The notes: generated by a model not told the origin, from the sequence alone. Counted from the first letter of the stretch, positions 9,424 through 14,284 are shown. The stretch: DNA of 64,000 nucleotides from Escherichia coli (GCF_003334255.1 NZ_QOWU01000019.1); one strand, 5' to 3'. Numbers and translations: made by a program.

Positions 9424-11514
9424 TCAGAACTGATAGTTCAGCGACATCCAGTAATTTCGCTCAGGTATCACATATCCTGTTGTTGATGATCCCGTCTGGA
9501 AGTAATCACCGGCATACAGCGTACTCTTACCGGCACTGTACAGGCTCACGTCACTGTAATCCTTGTTGAGCAGGTTATTCACCGCAGCATTCAGCGTCAG
9601 GGCATCCGTCATCTTCCACGACAGACCTGCATCCACCACCGTCCAGGCTTTCAGGTATTCTCCTTTCTCATCATACACTTTCTTCTGTACAGCGCTCAGT
9701 GACGAATAATTCTGGGTGAAACGTGGTGTTTTCCCGCGATAACGGGCACCCAGCCATGATGCCACCTCTTCGGTGATCTGCCAGTTCAGTTTCGCATTCA
9801 CCATGTGTTCAGGGGTATAACTCAGCGGCGCACCTTTGTTATCACCATCACGTTGTTCACTTCGGGTCCAGGTGTAATTCAGTGACAGCGTGACATCCTC
9901 TGACCACAGCGGCAATGTGCCGGCAAATTCCACACCATGCAACCGGGCCTTTCCGCTGTTTACATAGCTATTGGTGTTATCATTTATGGAATAAGAGACA
10001 ATCTTGTTGGAGAAGTCAGTCATAAAACCTGTGACATTGGCATTCAGACCGGCGGGGTTATCGTAATACACCCCAGCCTCATAACTGACGCTCTCTTCCG
10101 GCTTCAGGTTGGGGTTACCAAGTAGATTTGTTTTTCCCTGCCCGGACACACCACTAATCCCTTTATGTAGCTGCCCCATTCTGGGTGCCTTATATCCCGT
10201 GGTCACACCGCCTTTCAGCGTCCAGGCATCTGCCACATCCCAGACCAGATATGCACGCGGACTGAAGTGTCCCCCGAATTGCTCATGATGTTCATAGCGG
10301 CTGCCCGCAGTCAGCGCAAGTGCATCCGTGAGATGCCACTCATCCTCAGCAAATACCGACCAGCTTTTCTGCCGGAAAGTTTCACCTGTGCTGGCAAGGA
10401 CAACTCCGTCTTTCATGGACGAGCTCTGAAACTCGCCCCCCACCGTAACCAGATGAGATTCTCCCAGAGGGGTAAGCAGTAATGAATTCAGGATAAGGTT
10501 CGATTCCTTAAGCTCCCGCGGCTGACCGGCAAGCCCCCATTTGTCGCGCTTCAGTACACTGCGTACGAGCTCACGACCTTTATTTTCTGTCTCGTTCCAG
10601 TTCAGATACGATTTCCATGTTCCGAAGGTGAAAGTATGATCATAGCCAGCTGAAATTTTGTTTCGCTCATAGCGCAGGGTCCGGTCATATCCCCCCGTCA
10701 GACTCCCCAGTTGCCCATCCCGGTTATCATAACGCTGCCGGGTGGTATCCATATCAAACCAGAGCACATCCTGCTCCGACGCCTTCCAGTCAAGACGTGC
10801 ACCAAGATTATAATTCTGTGACTCCGTGGGATAAGGAATACGCGTGGCTGCTGTATCGCTCAGTGATGTGACCGATGAGCCCTGACGCTGTTGTGTGCTA
10901 CCGCGTACCTGCAGGCTGACAGAATCATCCACAAGGGGACCACTGCTCCAGAAATTAAACTGGCTGCTGTTACCCCATTTGTTGCTTTCCTGCAGATTCA
11001 GCCCTGCATTGACGGAAGAGAGCCATTTGTCTGCATTCTTTCTGGTAATGATATTCACCACACCGCCCATCGCATCAGAGCCATACAGTGTGGACATCGG
11101 CCCCCTGATAACCTCAATACGCTCAATGGCGGCCAGAGGGGGCATGAACCCGGTATTCATGGCAGAAAAACCGTTGGGAGTCACGTCACTGCTTCCGCCC
11201 TGACGAACACCATCAATCAGTATCAGCGTGTAACTGGCTGGCATTCCTCGGATGCTGATTTCCAGCCCACCGGTTTTACCCGTACCACTTTCAACATCCA
11301 CACCCTCTACTGATCTCAGAGCCTCCGCCAGATCGTGGTACTGGCTGGACTGCAATTCCTCCTGGCTAATCACAGAAACACTGGCGGCTGCGTTAGTCAG
11401 CTTTTTCTCATAGCCGGATGCAGAGACAATCATCACATCCTCTGCAGCAGCTATGCTGCTGGCTGAAAATCCGAGACAGGGAATGACTACGGAAGCCAGA
11501 GTGGTTATTCGCAT
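9424..11514 (-). CDS. iha: TonB-dependent outer-membrane siderophore receptor / adhesin (IrgA-homologue adhesin Iha-like)
   Basis: 696 aa ORF with signal peptide, plug and beta-barrel regions and a C-terminal aromatic residue (…WMSLNYQF) typical of TonB-dependent receptors; length and N-terminus match my recollection of Iha; symbol less certain than product. Confidence 0.8.
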   Translation of the reverse strand: MRITTLASVVIPCLGFSASSIAAAEDVMIVSASGYEKKLTNAAASVSVISQEELQSSQYHDLAEALRSVEGVDVESGTGKTGGLEISIRGMPASYTLILIDGVRQGGSSDVTPNGFSAMNTGFMPPLAAIERIEVIRGPMSTLYGSDAMGGVVNIITRKNADKWLSSVNAGLNLQESNKWGNSSQFNFWSSGPLVDDSVSLQVRGSTQQRQGSSVTSLSDTAATRIPYPTESQNYNLGARLDWKASEQDVLWFDMDTTRQRYDNRDGQLGSLTGGYDRTLRYERNKISAGYDHTFTFGTWKSYLNWNETENKGRELVRSVLKRDKWGLAGQPRELKESNLILNSLLLTPLGESHLVTVGGEFQSSSMKDGVVLASTGETFRQKSWSVFAEDEWHLTDALALTAGSRYEHHEQFGGHFSPRAYLVWDVADAWTLKGGVTTGYKAPRMGQLHKGISGVSGQGKTNLLGNPNLKPEESVSYEAGVYYDNPAGLNANVTGFMTDFSNKIVSYSINDNTNSYVNSGKARLHGVEFAGTLPLWSEDVTLSLNYTWTRSEQRDGDNKGAPLSYTPEHMVNAKLNWQITEEVASWLGARYRGKTPRFTQNYSSLSAVQKKVYDEKGEYLKAWTVVDAGLSWKMTDALTLNAAVNNLLNKDYSDVSLYSAGKSTLYAGDYFQTGSSTTGYVIPERNYWMSLNYQF

Positions 11515-11566
11515 ATTACTAATCTCCGATCATGTTAACCGGCAAGACAATACACAAATACAAACA

Positions 11567-11584
11567 ATAATGAGAATAATTTAT
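11567..11584 (-). promoter_or_regulatory. Putative Fur box in the iha promoter region
   Basis: ATAATGAGAATAATTTAT resembles the Fur consensus GATAATGATAATCATTATC; lies ~55-70 bp upstream of the iha start in an AT-rich region. Confidence 0.45.
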
Positions 11585-14284
11585 ATTTACCTTTTACAAA
11601 AAATAAAGATTATTGACAAAACTAAATATAAATAACGACTGCCTCGGCATGCCAGTTAACAGCTATCCGTATGGCGTGTTCGGTTTTGCGAATAAAAAAT
11701 GGTTACTGTAGAAGCGGATTTCCACCACATGTCAACCATGAATGGTCAGTGGTGCGAGACGACTGGGATGATTTGGTCGATGACTTCTTCCGGCGAATAC
11801 TGATAGAAACATTGAAATATTGTAAGAGAAAGCGTTCAAAATTCTGTGGCACGTGAAAAATTCTACAGCGTCATCACCTTATTCAGTCGACCTTCAAAAT
11901 AAACGTTTAACAGAGACAATCACCATTTGGATTGTCCGCTGAGGAGGTGAACGATTTCCTAGACAGCTTTATCATGCCAGCCCACATTGTTGGCGCTGAC
12001 AATACTAAGGACAAACGATGGGGAAGTAGCTTTTTAGCGTTATTTTCGGGAGTAAAAAACGTGGTATCTTTCCGTATGTCAGTTGTATCTTGCTGGTATT
12101 CGTAGTCGTGATAGGGCATACAACGATATTTATCTTGACGTTAGTGAAGAATAAGTTGTTTTGTGATCTATGTTAATCTAGGATTACAATCCGGGCTTGA
12201 TACATCGCATCACGACTTTTATTCTCTTCAGAGTAGAATATGTTACTCCCCGTTTTACAGGCTCAGGATTTGAATTACAAATTATACTTTTAAGTGAACA
12301 ATAACCAGGGGTATTTCTTATTTCCTGAAACCAGGCTTGGCCCATTTCGGGATGAGTTTGAAAAAACTCTTGACGCATACGATAGTGATGAAATAAACGA
12401 AACAAATTACGTCAACAAACTCAGGCGTCTTGCCTGACATGCTCCTGACATCATTGATATTCACGCTCATCTGGCATATGCATTTGCGCTCTTTATGCTG
12501 CAATTCTGGCGAATGTTCATTTACAGCGTCATCAGGATGCCGTTATACTCATTGATAAAATACTAACATATAACCCTGAGAATAATCAGGGGACACGCTG
12601 GTTACTGGGGGCGGAATTGTTACGTGCTGGCAAGCATGACAGGGCTCTGTACGTATTGACAGGACATGTCAATGAATTTCCCCCCTACTGGTACGAGCTT
12701 GCTCTTTTACATTTTATGAATGAGGAATATATTAATGCTGCAACGGCATTTCGATATGGATTTTTAACAAGCATATATTGTTGAAATGCTTTGTTAGAAT
12801 CTTTATCCATTCCCTGGGGCTGTATAGTATGATTTTTCAGGTATTTCTGAATACTGCCAAATATTATTGCAAAATATTCTCTAAATTATGAATTAAATAT
12901 CCATAAGCATTATTGCCTGGGAACTGGACATATAATCACTCTTCTGTGCTAAAGGAATGTTCTGAAATGTTTAAGTGTGCAGAGATGTTGATGGTGGAAG
13001 AAGATGATAAAGTATGTGAACTTATTTTTAAACAACAAGATAATTTGATTTTAAAAATAAATCATAGATTTCCCAGAATAATTATAAAGAAATACCGAAC
13101 ATTACAAGGTAAAGTCGTATGGCTATGGATATTGCCATTTGTTATTGAATGGTTAAGTGTGCGCACTTTGGGCGCAAACAGTTAGTGAAGTAAAAGTAAA
13201 TATCATGATTATTGTTTGTTAAGGAGTGAGATGCCTGTGCGTCTGGTGTCTATTATATTCCCATCATTATTGGCGCTATTTTTGCTGGCGTAGGCATCGC
13301 CACACTATGAATATTGTGTTTGTCGTGATTCAATTTTTATTTATAACCTCTACCCGGAGCAAATTCAGGTAGGTCATGCATAAAAATATCTTTCTATACT
13401 ACGAAACTACGAAACTACGAAAATTATTTTTGTGAAAGTATTGACAACGCTAACTATTTTTAATTATATATTCATGGTGCTCTAGGCATCACATTTTCTC
13501 CATGGGGTATTCCCTCCGCCGGCACTATGTGTTGCTGGCGTTTTTTTTATCAATTCTTACTTTTTAATCCCACTGTCCTTTCCACCAGAAACATACCTCG
13601 TTTCTACTGTATTTTGAGAATATAGTTCCCAGAATACCAATTATATATAATACGTTGTAATATATGTATTCCAATTAAAGCCGTTATTATAATAATTATC
13701 ATATATGGTTCTTTTCATGTTGATTTCGTCAGAAACAGAAAATGCTGATGATGAATTGTGAATAATCAAACTGACCTCTAATTATCCTGTATGGAGTAGT
13801 GCTTATTTTCGACTCAATTTCTACTGATTATATTATGGTTATCAGTACAGTGGGTTATGAAAAACGGACTGGATCTGCCAGCAGTGCTTCTATTATTCTT
13901 CAAAAAGAACTTCAGCCGGACAATGCTATAATCCAGGGAAAGGCTATAAGCTCTGTTGGACGGAATGTGGAAATCAGCACTGGTAAAAAGGGGAACTGAC
14001 ATTAACACAAGAAGGATTCCTGCAAGCAACTGCTTATCTGTCCGGAACGCAGAATTAAAGCATGACCACACAGGAGCCAGAATACTGTGGTCGTACGCAT
14101 TCAGTATTGTGACAACTAATAGAAATAAAAATCTGGCCGGTGCGAATATTAAACGATGCGATACCGTATAGTGTAAGTCAAAAGTAACGGGGTATTTAAA
14201 CCATCTTTTCATATTTATTTAATATAATGCAGATTCTGATGTATTAGTTCAGTTGTTCGCCAGAATCAGCGCTCGATCACTATG

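What the first reader, a model, noticed from the sequence alone, without database searches (positions are those of the whole stretch)
9424..11650. iha-like TonB-dependent receptor/adhesin gene with Fur-box-like site, flanked by IS remnants
The 696-aa receptor matches my recollection of Iha (a bifunctional adhesin/catecholate siderophore receptor of EHEC and UPEC). A Fur-box-like 18-mer lies in its AT-rich upstream region. Its presence between IS66 debris and an AT-rich decayed block marks this part of the window as a virulence-associated island.
Basis: partly seen in the sequence, partly recalled or inferred. Interest (0 to 1): 0.4.

Follow-up and report, generated by a model that had tools for sequence, protein, structure and literature searches.

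The report
Known iha iron receptor/adhesin gene
This is the well-known E. coli gene iha, an iron-repressed outer-membrane siderophore receptor that also acts as an adhesin, sitting with its known partner small RNA Esr41 in a pathogenicity island, so the finding is correct but ordinary.

Summary
The 696-aa ORF at 9424-11514 (minus strand) is iha. Its protein is 100% identical to Iha of UPEC CFT073 and differs by one residue (N469D) from the O157:H7 prototype. It scores 1617 bits on the NCBIfam Iha equivalog (cutoff 924) and has a TonB box, plug and beta-barrel.

The Fur-box-like site exists (11566-11584, 13/19 to consensus). On sequence alone it is not beyond chance, since 13% of shuffles do as well. 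Two other lines support it. The published CFT073 Fur ChIP-seq summit maps to window 11553 on identical DNA, with 181-fold derepression in a fur mutant. The site's core, ATTCTCATT, is invariant across five divergent iha lineages.

The flanks are as described: an IS66 transposase C-terminal remnant with its terminal repeat (9047-9238) and an AT-rich block. That block is not mere debris, because it holds an intact copy of the known sRNA Esr41 (13476-13549), which represses cirA, chuA and bfr. It also holds a fossil 5' end of a second iha-like receptor gene.

The iha-Esr41 module is collinear with O157 island OI-43/48 at 98.8% identity. Here it lies in an integrase-bearing island inserted into ulaE.

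Verdict: already known, low interest.

The parts
9424..11514 (-). iha coding sequence (696 aa including signal peptide; stop codon at 9424-9426)
   Evidence: ORF listing. Protein identical to CFT073 Iha with 2 synonymous nucleotide differences. NF010012 scores 1616.7 bits against cutoff 924. Annotated iha in 1593 of 5426 complete E. coli genomes.
11419..11439 (-). TonB box codons (residues 26-32, DVMIVSA), just after the predicted signal peptide (residues 1 to ~24, ...SIAAA)
   Evidence: Aligned with the N-terminal ETMVVTA of mature CirA in PDB 2hdf. The signal-peptide cleavage site is inferred from the sequence and from where mature CirA starts.
11059..11397 (-). Plug domain (residues 40-152)
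   Evidence: Pfam PF07715, E 5.5e-28.
9571..10857 (-). TonB-dependent receptor beta-barrel (Pfam match to residues 220-648; the barrel continues to the C-terminal ...NYQF)
   Evidence: Pfam PF00593, E 4.5e-67. C-terminal Phe read from the translation. CirA alignment.
11566..11584 (.). Fur-box-like site (AATAATGAGAATAATTTAT on the + strand; 13/19 to consensus). Its core ATTCTCATT (11569-11577, gene strand) is invariant in all alleles compared.
   Evidence: Consensus scan and shuffles. The CFT073 Fur ChIP-seq summit maps to 11553, which is 13-31 bp away, on identical DNA. Footprinting.
11523..11530 (-). Shine-Dalgarno region (ATCGGAGA), invariant across alleles
11592..11621 (-). Conserved upstream blocks TTTTGT (11616-11621) and TGTAAAA (11592-11598). 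These are candidate promoter elements. Homology with the most divergent alleles starts here, about 105 bp upstream of the ATG.
   Evidence: The consensus scan found no promoter of 9/12 or better on the gene strand, so the exact -35/-10 is unresolved.
9350..9394 (-). 3' stem-loop 29 nt after the iha stop codon (15-bp perfect stem, 15-nt loop, no U-tract). It marks the 3' end of the conserved gene unit.
   Evidence: Fold of 86 nt gives -29.6 kcal/mol, z -4.4. Every divergent allele has its own strong hairpin at this position with different stem sequences, and homology ends right after it.
9047..9238 (+). IS66-family remnant: frameshifted C-terminal ~50 codons of the transposase, plus the terminal inverted repeat (…CGCTTAC at 9232-9238)
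   Evidence: Pfam PF13817, E 9.5e-17. tblastn with the ISEc8 transposase matches residues 461-509 of 512. Sequence read directly. The same pseudogene is annotated next to iha in CFT073, ST69 and O157.
13476..13549 (+). Esr41 small RNA gene (intact, 74 nt, with intrinsic terminator at 13517-13540 plus T-run)
   Evidence: Rfam RF02676 scores 103.4 bits against gathering score 102, full length, E 1e-19. Terminator scan. Function from PMC5286369.
13823..13999 (+). Fossil 5' end of a second, AT-rich iha-like TonB-dependent receptor gene (equivalent to Iha residues ~24-84)
   Evidence: BLASTP gives 45% identity to Iha residues 27-82, E 1e-9. Its only NCBIfam hit is the Iha model NF010012, E 1e-6. 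phmmer on the six-frame translation.
13682..13700 (.). Fur-like palindrome (GATAATTATTATAATAACG; 14/19 on one strand and 13/19 on the other), about 120 bp upstream of the fossil receptor fragment
   Evidence: Its function is not tested, and this score is common in AT-rich DNA.
8847..15899 (.). The iha-Esr41 module shared with O157:H7 island OI-43/48 (SpLE1): IS66 remnant, iha, AT-rich block with Esr41, receptor fossil and a DDE transposase pseudogene (~14290-14650)
   Evidence: A single 7053-bp blastn alignment at 98.8% identity to O157 RIMD 0509939. Annotations.
24542..25723 (-). Tyrosine recombinase/integrase at the island's right end
   Evidence: ORF. NF007246 integrase domain, E 1e-75. RefSeq annotation.
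25901..25914 (.). Island/backbone junction: att-like repeat CTCCCCGACGGGGA, 43 bp inside ulaE
   Evidence: K-12 homology starts at window 25901, equal to K-12 position 4422888. The same 14-mer (13/14 identical) lies at the far end of the ~82-kb island in NZ_CP102488.1.

Best explanation
The ORF is iha, which encodes the IrgA-homologue adhesin Iha. Iha is a TonB-dependent outer-membrane transporter with a signal peptide, a TonB box, an N-terminal plug and a 22-strand beta-barrel. It imports ferric catecholate siderophores (enterobactin and its breakdown products) and also promotes adherence to epithelial cells.

When iron is plentiful, Fe2+-Fur binds about 40-70 bp upstream of the start codon, at or next to the AATAATGAGAATAAT site, and represses transcription. 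When iron is scarce the gene is strongly derepressed.

The gene unit runs from about 105 bp upstream of the ATG to a conserved stem-loop 29 nt after the stop. It travels between islands and plasmids as part of IS-bounded cassettes.

In this window the gene lies in the same 7-kb module as in O157:H7 OI-43/48, together with the sRNA gene Esr41. That module sits in an integrase-bearing island inserted into ulaE.

Shown here: gene identity, domain anatomy, sequence identity to DNA that binds Fur in vivo, conservation of the operator core, and module and island structure.

Taken from the literature or inferred: ligand specificity, adhesion, the exact Fur operator and the exact promoter.
For: Identity:
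- 100% protein identity to CFT073 Iha and one substitution (N469D) relative to O157:H7 Iha.
- 99.9% DNA identity to annotated iha in over 1300 genomes.
- NCBIfam equivalog NF010012 scores 1616.7 against cutoff 924 over 1-696/696.

Architecture:
- Pfam Plug at 40-152 and TonB_dep_Rec barrel at 220-648.
- The closest solved structure is CirA 2hdf, E 1e-77, with the TonB boxes aligned.
- The protein ends in C-terminal ...YQF.

Fur regulation:
- That summit maps to window 11553, 39 bp upstream of the ATG.
- The window is identical to CFT073 from the ATG to 11947.
- The 13/19 Fur-like site lies 13-31 bp from the summit.
- Its core ATTCTCATT is the longest invariant run in the leader across 5 lineages whose proteins differ by up to 10%.

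Function from the literature:
- Iha is described as a catecholate siderophore receptor (Leveille 2006, as cited in PMC3064760 and PMC12200846).
- iha deletion reduces adherence and reduces growth under iron limitation in O157:H7 (PMC3064760).
Against: - The Fur-like 19-mer is only 13/19, and 13.5% of shuffled upstream regions do as well. The exact operator is therefore not proven by sequence.
- No sigma-70 promoter on the gene strand passed the scan threshold. The best hand-found candidate, TTCTCA-18-TATTGT, is only 8/12.
- The 3' hairpin lacks a U-tract, so it is not a canonical intrinsic terminator.
- Transport and adhesion were not and cannot be tested here. One study reports no in-vitro adherence defect for an iha mutant (summarised in PMC8565820), so the adhesin role depends on context.
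Confidence: 0.95

Rival explanations
1. The ORF encodes a different TonB-dependent receptor (IrgA/CfrA-type, IreA, CirA or FepA) that was misrecalled as Iha.
For: These families are real homologues: CfrA model E 5.6e-152, IreA 7.8e-119, CirA 4.8e-97. CirA is the best PDB hit.
Against: All of them score far below their curated cutoffs: 507 against 1200, 398 against 1197, and 326 against 745. The Iha equivalog scores 1617 against 924. The protein is identical to RefSeq Iha WP_001223352.1.
Confidence: 0.01
2. The copy is a silent passenger. It would be an intact ORF but not expressed or not iron-regulated here, because its regulatory region was disrupted by the surrounding IS activity. On this reading the Fur-like motif is a chance feature of AT-rich DNA.
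For: The motif alone is not significant. IS debris lies on both sides. No promoter passes the scan.
Against: The 433 bp upstream of the ATG are base-for-base identical to CFT073, where Fur binds in vivo and iha rises 181-fold in a fur mutant. The leader elements are conserved in all lineages. The nearest IS breakpoints (9238, and beyond 12003 in other strains) lie outside the conserved -105 to hairpin unit.
Confidence: 0.03
3. Iha is essentially only a siderophore transporter, and the adhesin phenotype is indirect. The 'bifunctional' label would then overstate what the gene does.
For: The whole protein is a canonical TonB-dependent transporter with no extra adhesin domain. An iha deletion had no effect on adherence in vitro in one study (PMC8565820).
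Against: [quoted passage not shown] By my own recollection of Tarr et al. 2000, which I did not read here, the gene was originally isolated because it conferred adherence on K-12.
Confidence: 0.2

Closest known systems
Iha of UPEC CFT073 (c3610, WP_001223352.1) in PAI-CFT073-pheV
   Same: The protein is identical, and the DNA is 99.9% identical over 7114-12003, including the IS66 remnant, the 3' hairpin and the leader with its Fur-bound region.
   Different: In CFT073 an ISEc10 is inserted at the position equal to window 8823-8827. An IS3 cuts the upstream region at the position equal to 12003, so the Esr41 block is not collinear with iha there. In CFT073 the neighbours are pap, sat and iutA. 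Here they are afu-like/uhpC-like transport genes and lutABC.
Iha of EHEC O157:H7 in the tellurite-resistance/adherence island OI-43/48 (SpLE1)
   Same: The 7-kb module of IS66 remnant, iha, Esr41, receptor fossil and DDE pseudogene is collinear at 98.8% identity. The proteins differ only at N469D.
   Different: In O157 the module abuts the ter genes and the island sits at serW/serX with 14-bp TGGCGGTGAGGGGG repeats (PMC3064760). Here it abuts hypothetical genes and the island is inserted in ulaE with a different repeat.
Divergent iha subtypes (LAA island, pO113/pO104_H21 plasmids, ICE-borne and other alleles)
   Same: They share the same gene unit with 90-96% protein identity, the same leader blocks, and a hairpin at the same 3' position.
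   Different: These alleles are 695 aa, one residue shorter in the signal peptide. Their flanks are different, and their homology to the window ends ~105 bp upstream of the ATG and just after the hairpin.
CirA (colicin I receptor / catecholate transporter) of E. coli; IrgA of Vibrio cholerae
   Same: They share the TonB-dependent transporter fold, an aligned TonB box and plug, catecholate ligands and Fur control (IrgA from general knowledge).
   Different: Homology to CirA is only distant (E 1e-77, CirA model below its cutoff). CirA mRNA is a validated Esr41 target, whereas the iha leader is not predicted to pair with Esr41.
Esr41 sRNA (Rfam RF02676)
   Same: Full-length match above the gathering score, with all three stems and the terminator. 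Its position relative to iha is the same as in O157 Sakai (PMC5286369).
   Different: The literature describes it as EHEC-specific. Here it sits in an ExPEC/ST69-type island, and overall it is present in 695 of 5426 complete genomes, including O104:H4 and a porcine ETEC.

Membership tests
Iha (NCBIfam NF010012 equivalog; bifunctional siderophore receptor/adhesin) | Full-length match above the curated cutoff of the equivalog model | tested here: met
   1616.7 bits against cutoff 924, covering 1-696 of 696.
Iha (NCBIfam NF010012 equivalog; bifunctional siderophore receptor/adhesin) | Near-identity to the experimentally studied proteins (O157:H7 and UPEC Iha) | tested here: met
   100% identical to CFT073 Iha and 99.9% (N469D) to O157:H7 Iha.
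Iha (NCBIfam NF010012 equivalog; bifunctional siderophore receptor/adhesin) | TonB-dependent transporter architecture: signal peptide, TonB box, plug, beta-barrel, C-terminal aromatic residue | tested here: met
   Pfam Plug at 40-152 and barrel at 220-648. DVMIVSA aligns with the CirA TonB box. The protein ends in ...YQF.
Iha (NCBIfam NF010012 equivalog; bifunctional siderophore receptor/adhesin) | Fur binding upstream and iron/Fur-repressed transcription | tested here: met
   The evidence is indirect but strong. The upstream DNA is identical to CFT073. There the Fur ChIP-seq summit maps to window 11553 and iha rises 181-fold in a fur mutant.
Iha (NCBIfam NF010012 equivalog; bifunctional siderophore receptor/adhesin) | A recognisable Fur box by sequence alone | tested here: inconclusive
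   The best site is 13/19, and 13.5% of shuffles reach that. Its core is invariant across alleles.
Iha (NCBIfam NF010012 equivalog; bifunctional siderophore receptor/adhesin) | TonB-dependent uptake of catecholate siderophores; adherence to epithelial cells | not testable with these tools
   Known only from the literature (Leveille 2006 as cited; PMC3064760).
Other catecholate/haem TonB-dependent receptor equivalogs (CfrA, IreA, CirA, FepA) | Score above the family's curated cutoff | tested here: not met
   CfrA 507 against 1200, IreA 398 against 1197, CirA 326 against 745, FepA 270 against 493.
Esr41 sRNA (Rfam RF02676) | Covariance-model score at or above the gathering threshold, full length, with a Rho-independent terminator | tested here: met
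   103.4 bits against 102, model positions 1-74 of 74. Terminator at 13517-13540 plus T-run. The margin over threshold is small because the family is narrow, and the sequence is near-identical to the consensus.
IS66-family insertion sequence (intact element) | tnpA-tnpB-tnpC genes bounded by two terminal inverted repeats | tested here: not met
   Only the last ~50 codons of tnpC (frameshifted) and one terminal repeat remain at 9047-9238. It is a remnant and not a mobile element.
Integrase-mediated genomic (pathogenicity) island | Integrase gene at one end, flanking direct repeats of the target, atypical composition, virulence genes | tested here: met
   Integrase at 24542-25723. The 14-bp repeat occurs at window 25901-25914 and at the far end in NZ_CP102488.1. 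The content is a mosaic of IS debris. iha lies in the window, and hlyCABD and agn43 lie in the same island of the closest genome. The left end of the island lies outside the window.
Integrase-mediated genomic (pathogenicity) island | Insertion at a tRNA gene (typical but not obligatory) | tested here: not met
   There is no tRNA in the window. The insertion is 43 bp inside ulaE.

The most novel reading that the evidence does not exclude
The 7-kb iha-Esr41 module may act as a self-favouring 'iron-uptake rewiring' cassette that has moved beyond EHEC into an ExPEC-type island. Under this reading Esr41 silences the host's competing receptors (CirA, ChuA) and Bfr but spares the co-transferred Iha. 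Catecholate iron uptake would then be channelled through Iha, and colicin Ia/Ib resistance would come as a by-product. Waters et al. 2017 already speculated about this for EHEC. What would be new is the demonstration that Iha escapes Esr41, and that the cassette works in extraintestinal strains.
Probability: 0.35. Interest if true: 0.35.

Novelty: already known. Interest (0 to 1): 0.1.

Why it matters
The finding has little value as a discovery. iha is a textbook ExPEC/STEC virulence-associated gene, is present in 29% of complete E. coli genomes, and its Fur control is published.

The practical value lies in annotation. It fixes this part of the window as a pathogenicity island inserted in ulaE. 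It also shows that the 'junk' upstream of iha contains the regulatory sRNA Esr41, which RefSeq leaves unannotated in the matched genomes (features 'none').

The iha-Esr41 linkage outside EHEC is a modest lead for anyone studying how mobile sRNAs rewire iron uptake and colicin sensitivity in extraintestinal strains.

Tried and rejected
- tblastn of Iha against the whole window missed the receptor fossil. It was recovered only by pairwise BLASTP, hmmscan and phmmer. The fossil does not extend beyond the equivalent of Iha residues ~24-84.
- The sigma-70 consensus scan found no gene-strand promoter upstream of iha. Hand inspection gave only an 8/12 candidate (TTCTCA-18-TATTGT), so I do not assign a promoter.
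- RNAalifold on the 3' hairpin gave an ambiguous covariation signal because the divergent stems align out of register. Folding each allele separately was clearer.
- A full-length Esr41 duplexfold gave meaningless energies of -27 to -57 kcal/mol because it ignores Esr41's own stems. I replaced it with a seed-only calculation.
- I tried to read Leveille et al. 2006 by DOI and by PMC id, but the paper is not held. I could not retrieve the paper I recall as the iha promoter/Fur-site mapping (Rashid et al. 2006). A search for 'iha', 'Fur box', 'promoter' and 'IrgA homolog' returned nothing useful.
- I rejected the idea that the ORF is IrgA, IreA or CirA.
- I rejected the idea that the AT-rich block is pure debris.
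- I rejected a tRNA-associated insertion for the island.

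
Full report
OBSERVATION

Its GC content is 50-53%. It is followed upstream (11.5-14 kb) by DNA of 32-39% GC.

IDENTITY

- megablast of 9300-11800 finds 99.9%-identical DNA annotated 'iha: bifunctional siderophore receptor/adhesin Iha' in CFT073, ATCC 25922 and many others. iha-like DNA is present in 1593 of 5426 complete E. coli genomes, with 71 copies on plasmids.
- The translated protein is identical to CFT073 Iha (WP_001223352.1). The gene differs at two synonymous positions. It differs from O157:H7 Iha by one residue, N469D.
- The NCBIfam Iha equivalog NF010012 scores 1616.7 bits against a cutoff of 924 over the whole length. CfrA, IreA, CirA and FepA models are all well below their cutoffs.
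- Pfam finds a Plug domain at 40-152 and the TonB-dependent barrel at 220-648.
- The nearest solved structure is CirA (2hdf, E 1e-77). In that alignment Iha DVMIVSA (residues 26-32) sits on the CirA TonB box ETMVVTA.
- The protein ends in ...NYQF.

FUR SITE

The best match to the 19-bp Fur consensus in the 386 bp upstream of the ATG is 13/19 at 11566-11584. Taken alone this is weak. 13.5% of 2000 dinucleotide shuffles of the 200-bp upstream region do as well, and the window holds 42 sites of 13/19 or better. Two independent lines raise it above chance.

1. Published in-vivo data. Banerjee et al. [quoted passage not shown] The ChIP-seq summit is at genome position 3450905 with height 649. RNA-seq gives fur-/wt = 181-fold, ryhB-/wt = 1 and the double mutant 362-fold. 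The window is collinear and identical with CFT073 from the ATG out to 11947. The summit therefore maps to window 11553, which is 39 bp upstream of the ATG and 13-31 bp from the Fur-like site.

2. Footprinting. I aligned the leaders of seven iha copies that represent five mutually divergent lineages: the window/O157 type, LAA, pO104_H21, an ICE-borne allele, and F1022. Their proteins are 90-96% identical to the window's. In the two most divergent alleles homology begins only ~105 bp upstream of the ATG. Within those 105 bp the longest invariant run is ATTCTCATT (11569-11577), inside the Fur-like site. Next come the Shine-Dalgarno block ATCGGAGA, then TGTAAAA and TTTTGT.

I could not assign the promoter. 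The scan found nothing on the gene strand. The best hand-found candidate, TTCTCA-18-TATTGT, overlaps the Fur site but matches only 8/12.

GENE UNIT

A 15-bp perfect stem-loop lies at 9350-9394, 29 nt after the stop codon (-29.6 kcal/mol, z -4.4). Every divergent allele has its own strong hairpin at this position, with different stem sequences, and homology stops right after it. The conserved iha unit is therefore about 9350-11621. The hairpin has no U-tract, so it is a 3' structure and not a canonical intrinsic terminator.

FLANKS

On the 3' side, 9047-9194 encodes the last ~50 residues of an IS66-family transposase. The reading frame is frameshifted, and it matches Pfam PF13817 at E 9.5e-17. 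It is followed by a GTAAGCG-type terminal repeat ending at 9238. The same pseudogene lies next to iha in CFT073, ST69 and O157. A second IS66 end lies at ~5757-5987.

Pairwise BLAST defines the shared DNA:
- With CFT073 the shared stretch is 7114-12003. In CFT073 it is interrupted by ISEc10 at the position equal to 8823-8827 and cut by an IS3 at the position equal to 12003.
- With O157:H7 there is a single 7053-bp block, 8847-15899, at 98.8% identity.

The window therefore keeps the arrangement seen in the O157 tellurite-resistance/adherence island OI-43/48.

THE AT-RICH BLOCK IS NOT JUST DECAY

Rfam finds a full-length Esr41 sRNA at 13476-13549 on the plus strand (103.4 bits, gathering score 102). 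All three stems and an intrinsic terminator are present.

Waters et al. (PMC5286369) showed with compensatory mutations that Esr41 represses cirA, chuA and bfr, and that it confers colicin Ia/Ib resistance when expressed in trans in DH5alpha. They noted that iha lies just upstream and speculated that the two are co-selected.

Esr41 is called EHEC-specific in that paper. However, the 181-bp Esr41 region is present in 695 of 5426 complete genomes, including O104:H4 HUSEC2011, a porcine ETEC and ST69-type human isolates. RefSeq annotates nothing there.

I ran a crude seed-only duplex calculation against translation-initiation regions:
- cirA gives -18.4 kcal/mol, stronger than all 70 background leaders from the window.
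- iha gives -8.2 kcal/mol, at the background median.

This is consistent with Iha escaping Esr41. It is an inference and not a test.

The block also holds a fossil 5' end of a second iha-like receptor at 13823-13999 on the plus strand. It is 45% identical to Iha residues 27-82, and its only NCBIfam hit is the Iha model. A 14/19 Fur-like palindrome lies ~120 bp upstream of it, at 13682-13700.

ISLAND

- The window's first 24 kb match ST69-type genomes at 99.8% identity, for example O15:H18 strain ST69. Only 25 genomes cover 80% or more of it.
- A tyrosine recombinase gene lies at 24542-25723.
- K-12 homology begins at 25901, which is 43 bp inside ulaE. There is no tRNA in the window.
- In NZ_CP102488.1 the island is ~82 kb and lies between ulaD and ulaE. 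It carries hlyCABD, agn43, lutABC and an afu-like/uhpC-like cluster.
- It is bounded by an imperfect 14-bp repeat of a palindromic ulaE site, CTCCCCG(C/A)CGGGGA.
- The integrase|ulaE junction occurs in 64 of 5426 genomes.

The 'virulence-associated island' reading is supported, with one caveat: the hly and agn43 part lies outside the window.

VERDICT

The finding is correct and fully explained by existing knowledge: iha, Fur-repressed, in an IS-scarred pathogenicity island. Its novelty is 'already known'. The only additions are:
- The Fur motif is not significant on sequence alone.
- The upstream block carries the known sRNA Esr41, here in a non-EHEC-type island, and a fossil receptor gene.
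- The island is inserted in ulaE and not at a tRNA.

Noticed in passing
RefSeq leaves it unannotated in the matching genomes. It is present in 695 of 5426 complete E. coli genomes, including non-EHEC backgrounds, although the literature calls it EHEC-specific. A seed-only pairing estimate predicts cirA as a target but not iha.
   Followed up: yes
window 13823-13999 (+), with 13682-13700: A fossil 5' end of a second, AT-rich iha-like TonB-dependent receptor gene (45% identical to Iha residues 27-82). A 14/19 Fur-like palindrome lies ~120 bp upstream of it. In O157 the same stretch is annotated as a 111-aa 'hypothetical protein'.
   Followed up: partly
window 25901-25914; integrase at 24542-25723 (-): The island carrying iha is inserted 43 bp inside ulaE, not at a tRNA. 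It splits the ula (ascorbate utilisation) operon. In the closest genome it is bounded by an imperfect 14-bp repeat of a palindromic site, CTCCCCG(C/A)CGGGGA. This integrase|ulaE junction occurs in only 64 of 5426 complete genomes.
   Followed up: partly
window 9350-9394 (-): A 15-bp perfect stem-loop lies 29 nt after the iha stop codon and has no U-tract. All divergent iha alleles keep a strong hairpin here with different stem sequences, and homology between alleles ends immediately after it.
   Followed up: yes
window 11453-11635 (+): RefSeq annotates a 60-aa 'hypothetical protein' (WP_000922606.1) antisense across the iha start codon, leader and Fur site. It is probably a spurious call in AT-rich promoter DNA.
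   Followed up: no
window 16467-24259 (-): A cluster lies between the iha module and the integrase. It comprises an FbpC/Afu-like ABC transporter (ATPase, fused permease, binding protein), a UhpC-like MFS sensor/transporter, a UhpB-like MASE1 histidine kinase and a response regulator. By general knowledge it resembles the AfuABC sugar-phosphate uptake locus of enteric pathogens, and not an iron transporter as the 'ferric' annotation suggests.
   Followed up: partly
window ~400-4850 (-), 5757-5987 and ~6040-6870: A lutABC-type lactate utilisation operon with an L-lactate permease lies at the left of the window. It is followed by a second IS66 transposase C-terminal remnant in the opposite orientation and an IS110 pseudogene. 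The first 77 bases of the window do not match the otherwise collinear ST69-type genomes.
   Followed up: no
L008 (NZ_CM142787.1, chicken isolate GPEC1201): A divergent iha allele (90.8% protein identity) sits among integrating-conjugative-element genes (a conjugative transfer ATPase and a TIGR03757 protein). iha therefore also travels on ICE-like elements, in addition to islands and plasmids.
   Followed up: no
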